A DNA stretch of 64,000 nt from contig NC_058370.1 of the NCBI RefSeq assembly GCF_018350175.1, positions 132,122,001 to 132,186,000 of the forward strand, read 5' to 3'. How positions within the stretch are numbered: the stretch's first letter is position 1; each line of letters starts with the position of its first letter. The position numbers were made by a program, and so were the translations under genes. Positions 30,311 to 39,373 of the stretch are shown in pieces. The DNA is from Felis catus. Its lineage: Eukaryota. The notes below the pieces were generated by a model that searched no databases, had not been told where the DNA came from, and saw only the letters and a program-made list of their open reading frames with translations.

Positions 30311-30524
30311 TTTATTACGACATTTCGACGGCCAAGAACCTATTGTTATTGGCAAATTCTACAGAAGAGCAGCAAAAGTGGGTTAGTCGGTTGGTGAAAA
30401 AGATACCTAAAAAGCCTCCAGCTCCAGACCCTTTTGCACGGTCATCTCCTAGAACTTCAATGAAGATACAACAAAACCAGTCTATTAGACGGCCAAGTCG
30501 ACAGCTTGCCCCAAACAAACCAAG
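30311..30524 (+). CDS. ROCK2: ROCK2 exon 32 (VYYDISTAKNLLLLANSTEEQQKWVSRL...RQLAPNKP)
   Basis: tttag|TT...CCAAG|gtaata; ends in phase 2. Confidence 0.97.
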
Positions 30525-32109
30525 GTAATAAATTAAAATGTTAAAAATTACAGTGTCTTTTTTAATATTTTGCTGTTTGTGTTCAACTACAAATTTTCCT
30601 GATTGTAATGTACCTTTGCTTGGTATTTTAATGAACTGTGGACTACCAAATGTTGGAAACTATCTTAGTGTATATATCTTATTCATTGATTCAGTTAAAT
30701 GTAACACAGATTTGTTTACTAAATCACACACATATTAAATTCAACCTAAAATACATAAAGGGCTCATTTTTGTCATGTTTATGTGTATAATCATAATATT
30801 TTGAGATTTTGTAAGCATATTGACTGATTTAGTGATTTAGTAGACAGGATGTACGCACAGATCCGTAAGTGTCAGGTACGCATATTGTGTTTAATATTGC
30901 AAACCTCTTTTATGTTAGATAGCTTGGGAGGCAGGATCAAAATCTTCCTTAAGTTTTAATTTCACATCTATAAGTTTAGAATAACAACTTGTTTCTCATT
31001 TAAAGAGCAATAGAGATCAACCTTAAAAATGCAGATATTGATTAGTGGTTAAAGTGGGTGTGCCTTATATTTGAGGCAGAATTGGGACTAGGAAGTAAAT
31101 CCAGAGGTAATGATGAACGCAAAAAACATTTTGATGGTACCATTTTCATATGGCGACGTCATAGTAATTTAATTCTTGATTCAGAATAACCATTTATTGG
31201 CTTATTAGCTACTACGACATTTGTAAATATTGCTGTTTATTGAAATGAATGTGAAGATTTGGTTAGCTAAAGGATAAAGTATACACTGAGATCAGGTATC
31301 CAGTTTTGGGCATCCTTTTTGTTCCCTAACACAGGGCCTTCAGTGCATGAGTAATGATGTGCCCTGGCTGTGTTATCAGAGACCTTTGCATTCTAACCAC
31401 AGACATCTTAAGTGAAACTTTTCTTGAAACTAGTATTTCAAGGTTGAATTGGTGTTTTAGCAGTGAAAATGCTGAATTTTTCTGGGAGGTATGGGAAAAT
31501 TAAATACTATAAAATTAGCGATTATGATAGTAATTAAGCTGAAGAAGCTCAAAGAATTCAGAGACACTGAAGGTCATTCTGTGTGCCATGTGCAAAACAT
31601 CTAAAAATTAAATTTCTGTTATTAATATTGAACAATTAATGCATAGATGCTGTGCTATTTCAATAGCTTACAACATCTCGTGCTTTACAGCTTCCAAAGT
31701 GCTTCTATAATCTGTTCTCTCATTCAGCTTTCCATATATTCTGTCATTGGAACTTTAAAATATTTCTGTGGAGTAGAACAGATAGGTATTATTGTCTTTC
31801 TTTTTGGTTGAGACTCTAGAAGGGCAAATAATTTCAGAGTGAGGACAATAAGAACTCCAATCCTTTTGATACATTTTACTCTTCTGTGCAATTTGACAAG
31901 TTAATGATTTCACTACTTGTGATAACATACAGAATTCGTTTATGAAGCAGTTTTCAGACCAACTGGGGCATATTTTCAATTACATAACAGTTTTCATGTT
32001 CACGTCCTTGTAAATACTTTCTTTGTCATCCCCTTCCCTCCAGTTCAGCATTATGGTCTATTGGAGGCACATTTACTTTTTATTTTTGTTGCTTTTTGTT
32101 TTATTTTAG

Positions 32110-32171
32110 TTCTGGCCCCGCCCTTCGAATCATTCTTCACTGATTTTTTTAATACATTTTGCATAGCAACA
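32110..32171 (+). CDS. ROCK2: Candidate alternative ROCK2 penultimate exon (C-terminus ...KPSSGPALRIILH*)
   Basis: T-rich acceptor ttttag|, donor ACA|gtaagt, TGCATG and ACTAAT downstream; no transcript evidence available. Confidence 0.5.
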
Positions 32172-32577
32172 GTAAGTAATAGGGATTTCTTTCTCTCACA
32201 ACTATGCATGTAGCTGAAACTAATATCAAAACTGACCGTAAAATGTATAGGGTGTTTTGTGAATATTTTTCATCTAATATATACTCTTTGAAGCTTAAAG
32301 CATAGAGATGGGCACATTTAGGATGCAATTTTGTACTTTATGATGCATCTGCAGCATTATTTTCATTGTTAACATCTGTGCCTCCATTGCTTCATTAACT
32401 CATAGAATTGTATCTGTGTCTGTCTTACGTGAATCACCCTCCAGTTTCCATTTCATTTTGGGTGTCGCATTTTAGGAGTAGCATACACAAACTGGGGGGT
32501 ATACAGAAGAGAGTAACCGAGGTAGTAGTAGGTCATTTGAAAGTGTTACACGTGTAGCAAGTGAAGGAACTAAGGAT

Positions 32578-32770
32578 TTTTTTTTTTCCTTAGAGTAAGT
32601 GTGCACGTGTGCACATGTGAGCGGGAGAGAGGGAGGGAGAGAGAGAGATCTAAGTAGGCCCCATGCCCAGCGTGGAGCCCAAAACAGAGCTTGATCTTCT
32701 GACTGCGAGATCATGACCTGAGCCAAAACCAAGAGTAGGACGCTCTACTGACTGTGCCACCCAGATACCC
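32578..32770 (-). mobile_element. Can-SINE
   Basis: Antisense; near-TSD CTAAGGA. Confidence 0.85.
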
Positions 32771-33508
32771 TAAGGACTAATCTTCTGAAGAAATGATTTG
32801 GAAGGATAGGAGATCATAAATAGCAGTAAAGATTTAAAGAACTTTTCTGTGGATGACATATTAGAACAAGAACCAAACATAGAGGCACATTTGTAACTCA
32901 GCAAGGGAAAGGTATCAGGCAATCAGAGATTTCCAGAATTGGAAGGCTGGGCTTGCTCTAGAATAGTAAGTGCCTTGTCACCACTGTTGGTACCTGAGTC
33001 AAGTGACTGCTGGGTGACACTGTGGAAGAACACCCTCCTCAGCCTGTCACGTGTGTATAGTCTGACAGCCACACGGCTCTGGAGGGGAGTCAAGCATTGG
33101 ACTTGATGGCCTTTAACATTCTACTCCTAAATTTATAACATTCCTATAGATAAAAGGGTAGACCTGTTAAAGGATCATTCAGGAACATCTAGGAACAGCA
33201 TTTCTGGTAGACGTCAGCAGTAATATAATATCTAGCTCTTTGTGTCAGCCCAGCTTTATTTGAACTAATATGCACGGTGTCTTTCTTAAATATTTGGCTT
33301 TGTTAGACATCATCAAATGTGTATATATAAGTATGTACGTATTTATGTGTACACTAAAAGATAATACCCATAAACATCTAATCTGTCTTTTTTTTTTTTT
33401 TAACTTTTCCTCAGTAGTTGTCTTTGTTAATGACCACACCATCACATTTTTTTCTTTTGGCTTTTATGACATTCTTGGTTCTCATTCTCCTCTTAACTGT
33501 CTTTGCAG

Positions 33509-33552
33509 CACTTCCTTTTCTCTGTAGTGAAGTGTTTTAAGTTGATGGTTAA
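33509..33552 (+). CDS. ROCK2: Candidate alternative ROCK2 penultimate exon (...KPSTSFSL* or, from acceptor 33527, ...KPSEVF*)
   Basis: Long pyrimidine tract, TCTTAAC branch-like site, ttgcag| and ctgtag| acceptors, TAA|gtaagt donor. Confidence 0.45.

Positions 33553-37273: not shown

Positions 37274-37275
<2 letters not shown>

Positions 37276-37324
<49 letters not shown>
37276..37324. repeat. (GA)n microsatellite
   Basis: About 24 perfect GA units. Confidence 0.95.
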
Positions 37325-37329
<5 letters not shown>

Positions 37330-38549
37330 ACACCATTGGCTCAGTTGTGATCACATGACATTCAGCTTCACCTACTAGTATTGCAAGACACTGCTCGCTC
37401 ATTAAGTTAAAATTTATTAGAAATGTTTGCTCATCTTGCAGAACAAGTTACTTGCAATCCAAGTTTTACTGTATACCTGTGGTTTTTCTTTTGTTCATAG
37501 TTGTTCACAGAGAGCATCACTATCAGTGACCCATTGAACAAATAGGGTCCTGCTAGAATCGAGAAAGTTGCATTCTTAGTGTTACTCCCTCTTTAAACTA
37601 GGACTTGTGGTACTATTCTAGAAAAATGTAAGCTGGTACTCTGGGTCCTTTTGTGAAGGGAGTGTGGACAGGTGTTGAGCTTTCATAGTTCTCCAATCAG
37701 AGTAGGCATCAGGATGGTTAGTTACATCATCTGGGCCCAGTGGGGAGAAGATTGTATCTTATCCACAAATATCATCTGGTTCTCTGGTATTCTGGAAAGC
37801 AAACCTTATATATGTACATTATATGCATTTATATACAAAGGGAAAGAAGAGTTTCCTGTGTGCTACCATGTTAATTTGGACTGTGTTGTTATTGATGAAG
37901 GGAGCACAAAGTGTGATTTCTAGATAATTAGCATGTTAAACTGCTATTTCTAAAGTGNNNNNNNNNNNNNNNNNNNNNNNNNNNNNNNNNNNNNNNNNNN
38001 NNNNNNNNNNNNNNNNNNNNNNNNNNNNNNNNNNNNNNNNNNNNNNNNNNNNNNNNNNNNNNNNNNNNNNNNNNNNNNNNNNNNNNNNNNNNNNNNNNNN
38101 NNNNNNNNNNNNNNNNNNNNNNNNNNTTTCCAAGTAGTGCATGTGATTTGCACTTGGGTTTTCATTGGTTTTGACTAGTTTTTGAATTTTATTAAGTTTT
38201 TATTTTTAATAATATATTTGAAAAGTAGTTTTCAGAAAAGCTTCTAACTGAAATTTCCATGTTAAGTTATAAAAGTGAAATGCTATGTTCAGAATCTTTT
38301 TTAGCTACATATTTTCAATACAGTTGAATTAGTTTTTTATCTTAGGAATAGAACATGTAGACATAACAAAAGAAGCTAATTCTAGTACTTTTTTTTTTTC
38401 ATTCCAAAGAATCTATATTCAGATATTCAGACAAGTGAAATTTACAATGATTTCAAGTTCCTACAACTGTATTAGTTTGTGAACATAGCATGGGATTCCT
38501 TTTCCCTCCTCCCTGTCTCCTTCCCTCCTCTTTCTTTCTAACGTGCAAG

Positions 38550-38570
38550 AACTGAAACTGTAAAAACTTT
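38550..38570 (+). CDS. ROCK2: Candidate 21-nt ROCK2 microexon (...KPRTETVKTF*)
   Basis: ~40-nt CT tract, TGC then aag|, donor |gtaagt, frame-preserving. Confidence 0.45.
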
Positions 38571-39369
38571 GTAAGTCTAATAAGTGCTGTGAAATAGCTG
38601 TTTCTGATTTGGCTTTTCTTTGTGATGCTGTGAAACGTTTGCTTTGTGAAAAGATAATGTTACTCTTGCCGAAGAATGCTACTGATATGCTGTGAAAGTT
38701 CTTGTGCTTGTAGAACAAATAAAATAGTTCGGTTACAAAAAAAAAAAAAAAAAATACTTCGGTTAACAGTGGCTAAAGGAAATTTGAACCTCATGATTAA
38801 ACCTTTTACGTAGAATGGATTTAAAAGAAGTAATATCTGCCTTAACCTAAGGGAGCATATTGCAAAAATAGACTTAAATCATGTATCATTGGGAGGTGTT
38901 TATAACCAAGATTTACAGAGATTTTTACATATATTTACTGTAACAATGTGTTTGTTCCCATGTCATAGATTTTTAAAAAATGTGACTAAGAGTCAAATAG
39001 TCCAATAGAACCTGATCCAAAAGTCCACTGTTCGTTCAGCTACATGAGTCGGGAGCACTTAATCTCCAAGGCAAACTTAACACTCCCCTGACTTACTCCG
39101 TGACGTATTATCTAACCCTAACAGCCAGTTAACCGTATTACAACTTGTGTGTTGTGTTTGTAGGAAAATACAAGAATATAATTGCATGCACCTAAAAATC
39201 AGAAAAGTAATACAGTAAATATGTTTTATGTATGATTTAGGTGTTAAAAGCATAGGGGTTGGAAGACTACATAGTTTAATGATATAAATGGAATGCCTTT
39301 TCAAAGAATTTAACAGTCTCTTAAAGTATTTTACTGTATCAACTAACTTTGTTTTTTCTTTTTTTCCAG

Positions 39370-39373
39370 CTAG
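39370..39373 (+). CDS. ROCK2: ROCK2 exon 33 coding part (last base of Ser + TAG stop)
   Basis: Strong acceptor ttttttccag|CTAGCTGCCTTCT; completes ...APNKPS*. Confidence 0.92.

What the first reader, a model, noticed from the sequence alone, without database searches (positions are those of the whole stretch)
30524..39373. Possible C-terminal tail-switching system in the last ROCK2 intron
Seen: the 8.8-kb last intron splits the final codon (AG|C TAG), so any inserted exon rewrites only the extreme C-terminus. I find three separate AG...GTAAGT units with good pyrimidine tracts (32110-32171, 33509/33528-33552, 38550-38570) plus a read-through stop at the exon 32 donor. Predicted ends: KPS* (canonical), KPR*, KPSSGPALRIILH*, KPSTSFSL*, KPSEVF*, KPRTETVKTF*. 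Each new stop lies <=28 nt upstream of its donor or in the last exon. Established: stops <50-55 nt from the last junction escape NMD, and the ROCK C-terminal region controls autoinhibition and localisation. Inference: a regulated menu of tails that could retarget the kinase; including two cassettes together could instead trigger NMD. Some may already be annotated as minor isoforms; I cannot check.
Basis: partly seen in the sequence, partly recalled or inferred. Interest (0 to 1): 0.8.

Follow-up and report, generated by a model that had tools for sequence, protein, structure and literature searches.

The report
Three-way tail switch in ROCK2

Summary
The coordinates and all six translations are right, but only part of the menu holds.

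Exon E1 (32110-32171, KPSSGPALRIILH*) is real by conservation: 35 of 438 ROCK2-type records, from 27 species (sharks to placentals), end in this tail, 15 identically. It has strong splice sites and Rbfox/QKI-type motifs downstream.

It likely comes from the 97-nt Rbm24-regulated cassette published for the mouse last intron and is not encoded in the readable letters here.

The E2 and E3 tails occur in 0 of 438 records. KPR* follows automatically from any phase-2 GTAA donor, and ROCK1 has it too.

Best reading: an ancient three-way switch (plain, hydrophobic, acidic) on a disordered basic linker. It likely tunes membrane residence or partners rather than autoinhibition; double inclusion would trigger NMD.

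No reads from this species were examined. E1 is in database models, but my searches found no study of it; two key papers were unavailable. No E1 tail appeared in 33 rodent records. The scan had no earlier ROCK2 note, only similar tail exons in other genes.

The parts
30311..30524 (+). ROCK2 penultimate constitutive exon ('exon 32', 214 nt): end of the split PH domain plus a basic, disordered linker; ends in phase 2 (AG|)
   Evidence: same 214-nt length as the upstream exon in the mouse table; linker pLDDT 44-58
30525..39369 (+). Last intron, 8845 nt; splits the final codon AG|C
   Evidence: ROCK1 has the same split (AG|T TAA) across a 1198-nt intron
32110..32171 (+). E1: 62-nt conserved exon; coding part 32110-32143 gives KPSSGPALRIILH*, then 28 nt to a GTAAGT donor
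   Evidence: tail in 35 of 438 records from 27 species; tblastn of otter and shark tails hits 32108-32140 and 32111-32140; acceptor rank 5 of 636, donor rank 3 of 526
32205..32224 (+). TGCATG (+34) and ACTAAT (+48) downstream of the E1 donor; Rbfox- and QKI-type motifs (motif identities recalled), likely inclusion enhancers
   Evidence: both motifs share 81 of 8477 100-nt windows of the intron (post hoc); the same pair follows the known muscle exon
32049..32171 (+). Upstream alternative acceptor of E1 (123 nt); here gives KPSIMVYWRHIYFLFLLLFVLF*, stop 62 nt before the donor, a predicted NMD target
   Evidence: one bat model (P0155) starts its tail at the matching site but runs in another frame, so the peptide is not conserved
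33509..33552 (+). E2: exon-like unit with acceptors 33509 and 33528; unsupported, still open
   Evidence: Donor rank 2 of 526, acceptors rank 36 and 48 of 636; tails in 0 of 438 records
38550..38570 (+). E3: 21-nt exon-like unit; unsupported
   Evidence: AAG acceptor rank 94 of 636, donor rank 43 of 526; tail in 0 of 438 records; TGC just before the AG and a long pyrimidine tract resemble neural microexons (recalled pattern)
39370..39373 (+). Start of the last exon: C + TAG, giving canonical KPS*
   Evidence: 131 of 438 records end in the plain S tail
30527..30532 (+). AATAAA inside the exon-32 donor (GT AATAAA) with a T/GT-rich stretch about 25-55 nt downstream; possible intronic polyadenylation site that would give KPR*
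   Evidence: use untested

Best explanation
The last intron of ROCK2 holds a 62-nt exon (E1) whose encoded ending GPxLRIILH is carried by database gene models from sharks to placental mammals, and it likely works as one position of an ancient three-way switch of the protein's extreme end. Because the last codon is split, skipping gives ...KPS*, including E1 gives a short hydrophobic tail, and including a second, more distal exon gives an acidic, aromatic tail of about 30 residues.

Shown here: the anatomy, the conservation of both tails in protein records, and that both sit on a basic linker that is disordered in the E1 model.

From print: a 97-nt cassette in the mouse last intron depends on Rbm24 in muscle.

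Inferred: (1) that cassette encodes the acidic tail; (2) E1 is included in muscle-type tissues under Rbfox/QKI control; (3) each exon alone escapes NMD (E1 stop 28 nt from the last junction) while both together (about 125 nt) are destroyed, which keeps the tails exclusive; (4) the tails change where the constitutively active kinase sits, the acidic one by cancelling the linker's charge (+11 to +1) and E1 by adding a short docking motif for an unknown partner. E2, E3 and KPR* are most likely not part of the conserved switch.
For: E1 tail: 35 of 438 records, 27 named species: cartilaginous fish 3 of 15 records, ray-finned 9 of 37, amphibians 8 of 57, turtles 2 of 40, monotremes and marsupials 7 of 25, carnivores 2 of 21, other placentals 4 of 33. 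In the set gathered before any search aimed at it, 11 of 228. A frog record is identical to the window's tail. Changes are conservative: A/M/I/P/V at one site, I/V at another, and an in-frame 2-residue insertion in sharks. Acidic tail: 117 of 438, sharks to mammals, including jaguar; 112 of 117 end in FDF. Mouse: exon chr12:16982650-16982747 between a 214-nt exon and the last exon, values 1.37E-07 and 0.256 (PMC7532667 supplement). E1 splice sites rank near the top of the intron; motifs; NMD distances; charge. AlphaFold2 folds PH-C1 well and leaves residues 201-250 unstructured. Phosphorylation just after the PH domain controls membrane residence of fly Rok (PMC7008249).
Against: No junction read from this species was examined. 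Evidence of expression rests on automated gene models (RefSeq X isoforms, UniRef entries), not on peptides; a human junction-proteomics supplement held none of the tail peptides (one file searched). E1 is absent from 33 rodent, 78 bird, 6 squamate and 5 primate records, so it may be lost or rare in those groups. The acidic exon is not in the readable letters of the window. No relative's genomic DNA was obtained, so splice sites and motifs were not compared across species. E1 does not raise a basic-hydrophobic membrane score (0.27 versus 0.20 for the plain end; maximum 0.60 in all three; scale recalled). PMC7532667 says, citing Singh 2014, that including the C-terminal exons impairs kinase activity, which points to catalysis rather than location.
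Confidence: 0.7

Rival explanations
1. The full menu of the first reader: E2 (two acceptors), E3 and the read-through form are also regulated, functional tails.
For: Exon-like units exceed shuffles at strict thresholds. E2 has the second-best donor in the intron. E3 is 21 nt with a TGC before the AG. AATAAA sits in the exon-32 donor. 72 of 438 records end in R. The sample is thin where it matters: 15 of 586 and 15 of 521 members of the two largest mammal clusters were listed, and no search was aimed at the E2 or E3 tails.
Against: 0 of 438 records carry these tails. E3 sites are weak (ranks 94 and 43). R* is forced by the donor consensus, is shared by ROCK1 and is not kept in several unnamed contig records that read KPRW... 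or KPRY. Many R records are frames called on contigs or partial models.
Confidence: 0.1
2. The tails act on catalysis: they fold back or act in trans on the kinase domain and lower its activity, as in the classical autoinhibition model.
For: [quoted passage not shown] The acidic tail's F-K-D-W-D-W resembles the acidic hydrophobic motif that docks on AGC kinases (FxxF-D/E-Y type, recalled, untested).
Against: PMC4686654: a 107-nm coiled coil separates kinase and regulatory domains, and activity is not influenced by them. The plural 'exons' probably includes the 171-nt muscle exon, so the effect cannot be assigned to a tail.
Confidence: 0.2
3. E1 is kept for RNA-level reasons (a dosage or NMD device, or overlapping splicing elements), or is a rare vestige in mammals, and its peptide has no function of its own.
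For: E1 plus the distal exon, or E1 from the 32049 acceptor, puts the stop 125 or 62 nt upstream of the last junction. No E1 tail in rodent, bird or primate records in hand.
Against: E1 alone escapes NMD (28 nt). The frame and the LRI(I/V)LH end are kept across all jawed-vertebrate groups where it occurs, with conservative swaps and an in-frame insertion; none of the 26 tails classed 'other' is a frame-shifted or degenerate version starting at the same acceptor in mammals.
Confidence: 0.12

Closest known systems
Mouse Rock2 97-nt cassette exon in the last intron (PMC7532667 supplement tables; Rbm24-dependent in skeletal muscle), probably part of the myotube isoform of Singh et al. 2014 (PMC4142074, not read)
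   Same: Same intron (after the 214-nt exon, before the last exon), so it also rewrites the extreme C-terminus; muscle-regulated.
   Different: 97 nt and 4548 nt into a 6535-nt intron (70%), against E1's 62 nt and 1585 nt into 8845 (18%). It most likely encodes the acidic tail, not E1 (inferred from length and from 11 of 33 rodent records being acidic and none E1).
Database-predicted ROCK2 isoforms ending SSGPALRIILH (e.g. XP_022369169.1 sea otter X1, XP_072627173.1 wolf X3, XP_017911137.1 goat X3, XP_036191213.1 Myotis X4, XP_048386448.1 zebra shark X2)
   Same: Same tail; identical to the window's translation in 15 of 35 records.
   Different: Automated models with no described function; my searches found no paper on this tail or its conservation.
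ROCK2m, the 171-nt muscle exon (Pelosi 2007, PMC1952159, not read; coordinates in PMC7532667 supplement)
   Same: Alternative exon of the same gene, present in the window at 25259-25429/25435, with the same downstream motif pair; 26 of 33 scorable E1 records also carry it, against 47 of 107 plain and 53 of 112 acidic (biased by cluster representatives).
   Different: Internal and in frame, before the PH domain; does not change the C-terminus.
ROCK1 3' end (G000:C27)
   Same: Final codon split by a phase-2 last intron; read-through also gives R*.
   Different: Intron is 1198 nt with no GTAAGT, no TGCATG and no trace of either tail (best 4 of 10 identities): no switch.

Membership tests
Conserved stop-bearing cassette exon giving an alternative C-terminus (E1) | Canonical AG/GT sites of constitutive-like strength | tested here: met
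   Scores 10.6 and 8.6 within the gene's own ranges; ranks 5 of 636 and 3 of 526 (rough matrix from 18 acceptors and 18 donors of this gene, one donor mis-picked)
Conserved stop-bearing cassette exon giving an alternative C-terminus (E1) | Encoded peptide conserved in frame across species | tested here: met
   35 records, 27 species, sharks to placentals
Conserved stop-bearing cassette exon giving an alternative C-terminus (E1) | Stop within about 50-55 nt of the last junction (NMD escape; rule from established knowledge) | tested here: met
   28 nt
Conserved stop-bearing cassette exon giving an alternative C-terminus (E1) | Both junctions seen in RNA of this species, with tissue-dependent inclusion | not tested
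   No read evidence obtained; protein records cannot tell a cassette from an alternative terminal exon
Poison (NMD-triggering) exon | Stop more than 50-55 nt upstream of the last junction | tested here: not met
   E1 28 nt, E2a 25, E2b 12 alone; met only for the 32049 acceptor (62 nt) and for E1 plus E2a (72) or plus a 97-nt exon (125)
Neural microexon (E3, E2b) | Length 3-27 nt with UGC next to the acceptor (definition recalled) | tested here: met
   E3 21 nt with TGC at -6 to -4; E2b 25 nt
Neural microexon (E3, E2b) | Conservation across vertebrates | tested here: inconclusive
   0 of 438 protein records, but the sample is partial and no relative's DNA was available
Neural microexon (E3, E2b) | Neuron-specific, SRRM3/4-dependent inclusion | not testable with these tools
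   A literature search for ROCK2 plus microexon listed 17 of 21 papers, none on this by title or abstract start
Mouse Rock2 97-nt exon (is E1 its orthologue?) | Matching length and position in the last intron | tested here: not met
PDZ-binding C-terminus (definition recalled) | Hydrophobic last residue | tested here: not met
   E1 ends in H in 35 of 35. The acidic tail does end F-D-F in 112 of 117, a class II-like pattern; binding untested
Calcineurin PxIxIT-type docking motif (resemblance recalled) | Binding to the calcineurin catalytic subunit through an added beta strand | not testable with these tools
   P-x-L-R-I-I-L-H has the alternating hydrophobic pattern and a final H, but the proline is out of the canonical register; no partner sequence was in hand

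The most novel reading that the evidence does not exclude
ROCK2 has carried since the first jawed vertebrates a splicing switch among three endings, and the E1 ending GPxLRIILH is an unstudied docking motif (for example a PxIxIT-like strand that recruits a phosphatase) that retargets the kinase in muscle. Rodents lost or silenced it, which is why mouse work saw only the acidic form.
Probability: 0.25. Interest if true: 0.7.

Novelty: new member of a known kind. Interest (0 to 1): 0.45.

Why it matters
ROCK2 is a central regulator of contractility and a drug target, and is usually studied as one 1388-residue form. Two alternative endings kept for roughly 450 million years (date recalled) imply functions that standard constructs and C-terminal tags or antibodies would miss. 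If ROCK2 is controlled by position rather than autoinhibition (PMC4686654), tails with opposite chemistry next to the membrane-binding module give a direct test: swap the tail and measure membrane residence, partners and activity. If E1 is missing in rodents, mouse models cannot report on it. The score is tempered because databases already predict both tails and a cassette in this intron is already published.

Tried and rejected
Genomic DNA of relatives: a protein-based scan of metagenome contigs gave 595 pattern hits and none confirmed; a pattern scan for E1 gave 0. Splice-site conservation is therefore untested.

RNA: runs holding the region were listed (18 holders from 11 studies, 6 raw RNA runs), but no read evidence was obtained, so junction use in this species is open.

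The second (60 sequences) folded PH-C1 and showed no fold-back of the E1 tail. A two-copy prediction of PH-C1 plus E1 tail returned 'no answer', score 0.00 against a mark of 0.32. No solved structure covers the tails (7 matches).

Origin: among 144 new representatives at 50% identity none has the E1 tail; three divergent records show acidic-type ends (P0440, P0443, P0547), and the distant Rok-like records have neither.

RNA structure: the 25 longest of 122 inverted repeats are SINE-like pairs and A/T runs; nothing that looks like a selector for exon choice.

Basic-hydrophobic score: no gain from E1.

Literature: 10 searches. 'Rock2f' matched floxed-allele papers; the 62/97-nt search gave 0 papers. 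Singh 2014 and Pelosi 2007 are not in the library. Supplements of PMC5989265 (12 of 15 files; only the 171-nt exon), PMC5577920, PMC4801060, PMC11653684, PMC6613909 and PMC6961840 gave nothing on the last intron.

Rejected: the read-through stop as evidence of design; E1 as the orthologue of the mouse 97-nt exon; E1 as a poison exon; 'autoinhibition' as established.
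Full report
OBSERVATION. The window holds the 3' part of ROCK2; tblastn of a wolf model matches 19 blocks from 2587 to 32140. Exon 32 is 30311-30524 and ends in phase 2; the 8845-nt last intron is followed by C TAG, so the skip form ends KPS*. The intron has 8 GTAAGT; 5 have a pyrimidine-rich acceptor within 200 nt at a loose threshold (shuffles 1.6+-1.2; upstream 30 kb, 5 non-exonic units) and 4 at a strict one (shuffles 0.15; upstream 0). 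Exon-like units are therefore somewhat enriched, but each needs its own evidence. A rough matrix from the gene's own sites ranks E1 at 5 of 636 acceptors and 3 of 526 donors, E2 at 36/48 and 2, and E3 at 94 and 43.

E1 IS CONSERVED. The first search with the exon-32 peptide returned a frog record ending PPNKPSSGPALRIILH, identical to the window's E1 tail. In the 228 proteins gathered before any search aimed at this tail, 11 had it. An aimed search and two more cluster look-ups brought the set to 438: plain S 131, acidic 117, R 72, E1 35, partial 31, other 26, no anchor 26. The 35 come from 27 named species. By group: cartilaginous fish 3 of 15 records, ray-finned fish 9 of 37, amphibians 8 of 57, turtles 2 of 40, monotremes and marsupials 7 of 25, carnivores 2 of 21, other placentals 4 of 33; rodents 0 of 33, birds 0 of 78, squamates 0 of 6, primates 0 of 5 (groups assigned by hand from record names; unnamed and unanchored records left out). 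The end reads G-P-x-L-R-I-(I/V)-L-H. My filter fixes the last six positions, but the 'other' tails listed hold no near variant. These are automated gene models, and the set is not random: E1's share is inflated, and only 15 of 586 and 15 of 521 members of the largest mammal clusters were listed.

The commonest alternative ending is KPRLLDLAFKDWDWSFDD...VFDF*, from sharks to mammals, including jaguar and seals; 112 of 117 end in FDF and 113 have DWxW. It is not encoded in the window's readable letters. By exclusion it is either in the intron's one unreadable stretch or absent from this genome; I cannot tell which. PMC7532667 (passages, Discussion and supplement rows seen) lists a mouse skipped exon chr12:16982650-16982747 (97 nt) between a 214-nt exon and the last exon, altered on Rbm24 loss (1.37E-07, 0.256). 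The table's header was not shown; I read the columns by rMATS convention and by the matching 171- and 214-nt lengths. Rodent acidic tails need about 85 nt of coding sequence plus stop, which fits 97 nt, and the exon lies 70% into the intron against 18% for E1. I infer it encodes the acidic tail. The same paper says, citing Singh 2014, that including the C-terminal exons impairs kinase activity and helps myoblast fusion. Singh 2014 and Pelosi 2007 were not available, so I cannot exclude that E1 is described there or in supplements I could not see.

E2, E3 AND KPR*. None of 438 records ends in the E2a, E2b or E3 tails. E2 stays open because of its strong donor and long pyrimidine tract (I put some real use at about 0.25); E3 has weak sites but a microexon-like TGC (about 0.15). 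KPR* is forced by the donor: AG plus GTAA, GTAG or GTGA reads R*. ROCK1 in the same genome has the same split codon and read-through across a 1198-nt intron with no cassette, so this layout is ancestral, not a design for switching. Several unnamed contig records read through as KPRW... or KPRY. An AATAAA in the donor leaves intronic polyadenylation possible.

REGULATION (inferred). E1 is followed by TGCATG at +34 and ACTAAT at +48; neither motif lies within 150 nt of E2 or E3, and the known muscle exon has the same pair downstream (motif identities recalled). 26 of 33 scorable E1 records also carry the muscle exon, against 47 of 107 plain and 53 of 112 acidic, a weak hint because representatives favour long forms. 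E1's stop is 28 nt from the last junction; adding a 97-nt exon makes it 125 nt, so NMD would remove double inclusion.

FUNCTION (inferred). AlphaFold2 with a deep alignment folds PH-C1 (mean pLDDT 80) and leaves the last 50 residues, E1 tail included, unstructured. From the last PH helix on, the net charge is +11 (plain), +12 (E1) and +1 (acidic). PMC4686654 (passages) describes ROCK2 as an extended, constitutively active dimer held at membranes by C1 and PH. PMC7008249 (passages) shows that phosphorylation close to the end of the PH domain controls membrane residence of fly Rok. The acidic tail would most simply cancel this basic segment or bind a basic partner. The E1 tail adds no predicted membrane affinity, and its fixed residues suggest a short docking motif for an unknown partner. 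A resemblance to calcineurin-docking strands is recalled and untested.

NOVELTY. Alternative C-termini from stop-bearing penultimate exons are a known kind; a cassette in this intron is published for mouse; both tails are in database models. Ten literature searches, which cover only open-licence PMC and bioRxiv, found no description of the E1 tail, of the depth of conservation, or of a three-way switch. Other papers were seen only as listings, single passages or supplement searches (PMC11380049, PMC4801060, PMC5989265, PMC5577920, PMC11653684, PMC8753376, PMC6613909, PMC10650911, PMC6961840, bioRxiv 247601 and 257261) and added nothing on this intron. The scan's notes hold nothing on ROCK2.

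VERDICT. Observation confirmed, interpretation partly supported: one of three candidate exons is real and ancient (about 0.9), a further one was missed, and the rest are unsupported. New member of a known kind; interest 0.45.

Noticed in passing
window 25259-25435: The known ROCK2 muscle exon has two donors 6 nt apart, giving 171 nt (G|GTACAG) or 177 nt (AG|GTGATA); ACTAAT, ACTAAC and TGCATG follow within about 140 nt.
   Followed up: partly
window 30527-30585: AATAAA overlapping the exon-32 donor, followed by a T/GT-rich element: candidate intronic poly(A) site competing with U1 binding.
   Followed up: no
window 32044-32109: Two upstream acceptors for E1. 32044 is in frame with E1 and would add 22 mostly hydrophobic residues (SSALWSIGGTFTFYFCCFLFYF before the E1 tail); 32049 matches a bat model.
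   Followed up: partly
protein records: No E1 tail in 33 rodent and 78 bird records although both groups have the acidic tail (11 and 17): possible lineage losses.
   Followed up: no
P0353, P0358, P0364, P0367, P0372, P0389, P0390: Sturgeon, paddlefish, bowfin and gar models show a further proline-rich ending (SPPWPDPSTD, SPPRPGAPTD, SPPRPEPPRIKREESSSGD); arowana has a diverged RLSDPKMKWD... ending.
   Followed up: no
P0267, P0408-P0410, P0440: A lizard (and one unnamed record) has a longer acidic tail ending DVFVLKS instead of VFDF.
   Followed up: no
window 35822-36047 and 36926-37126: Two SINE-like copies in opposite orientation about 1.2 kb apart could pair in the pre-mRNA between E2 and E3.
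   Followed up: no
window 38410-38570: A stronger acceptor at 38410 could pair with E3's donor to give a 161-nt unit; not translated or tested.
   Followed up: no
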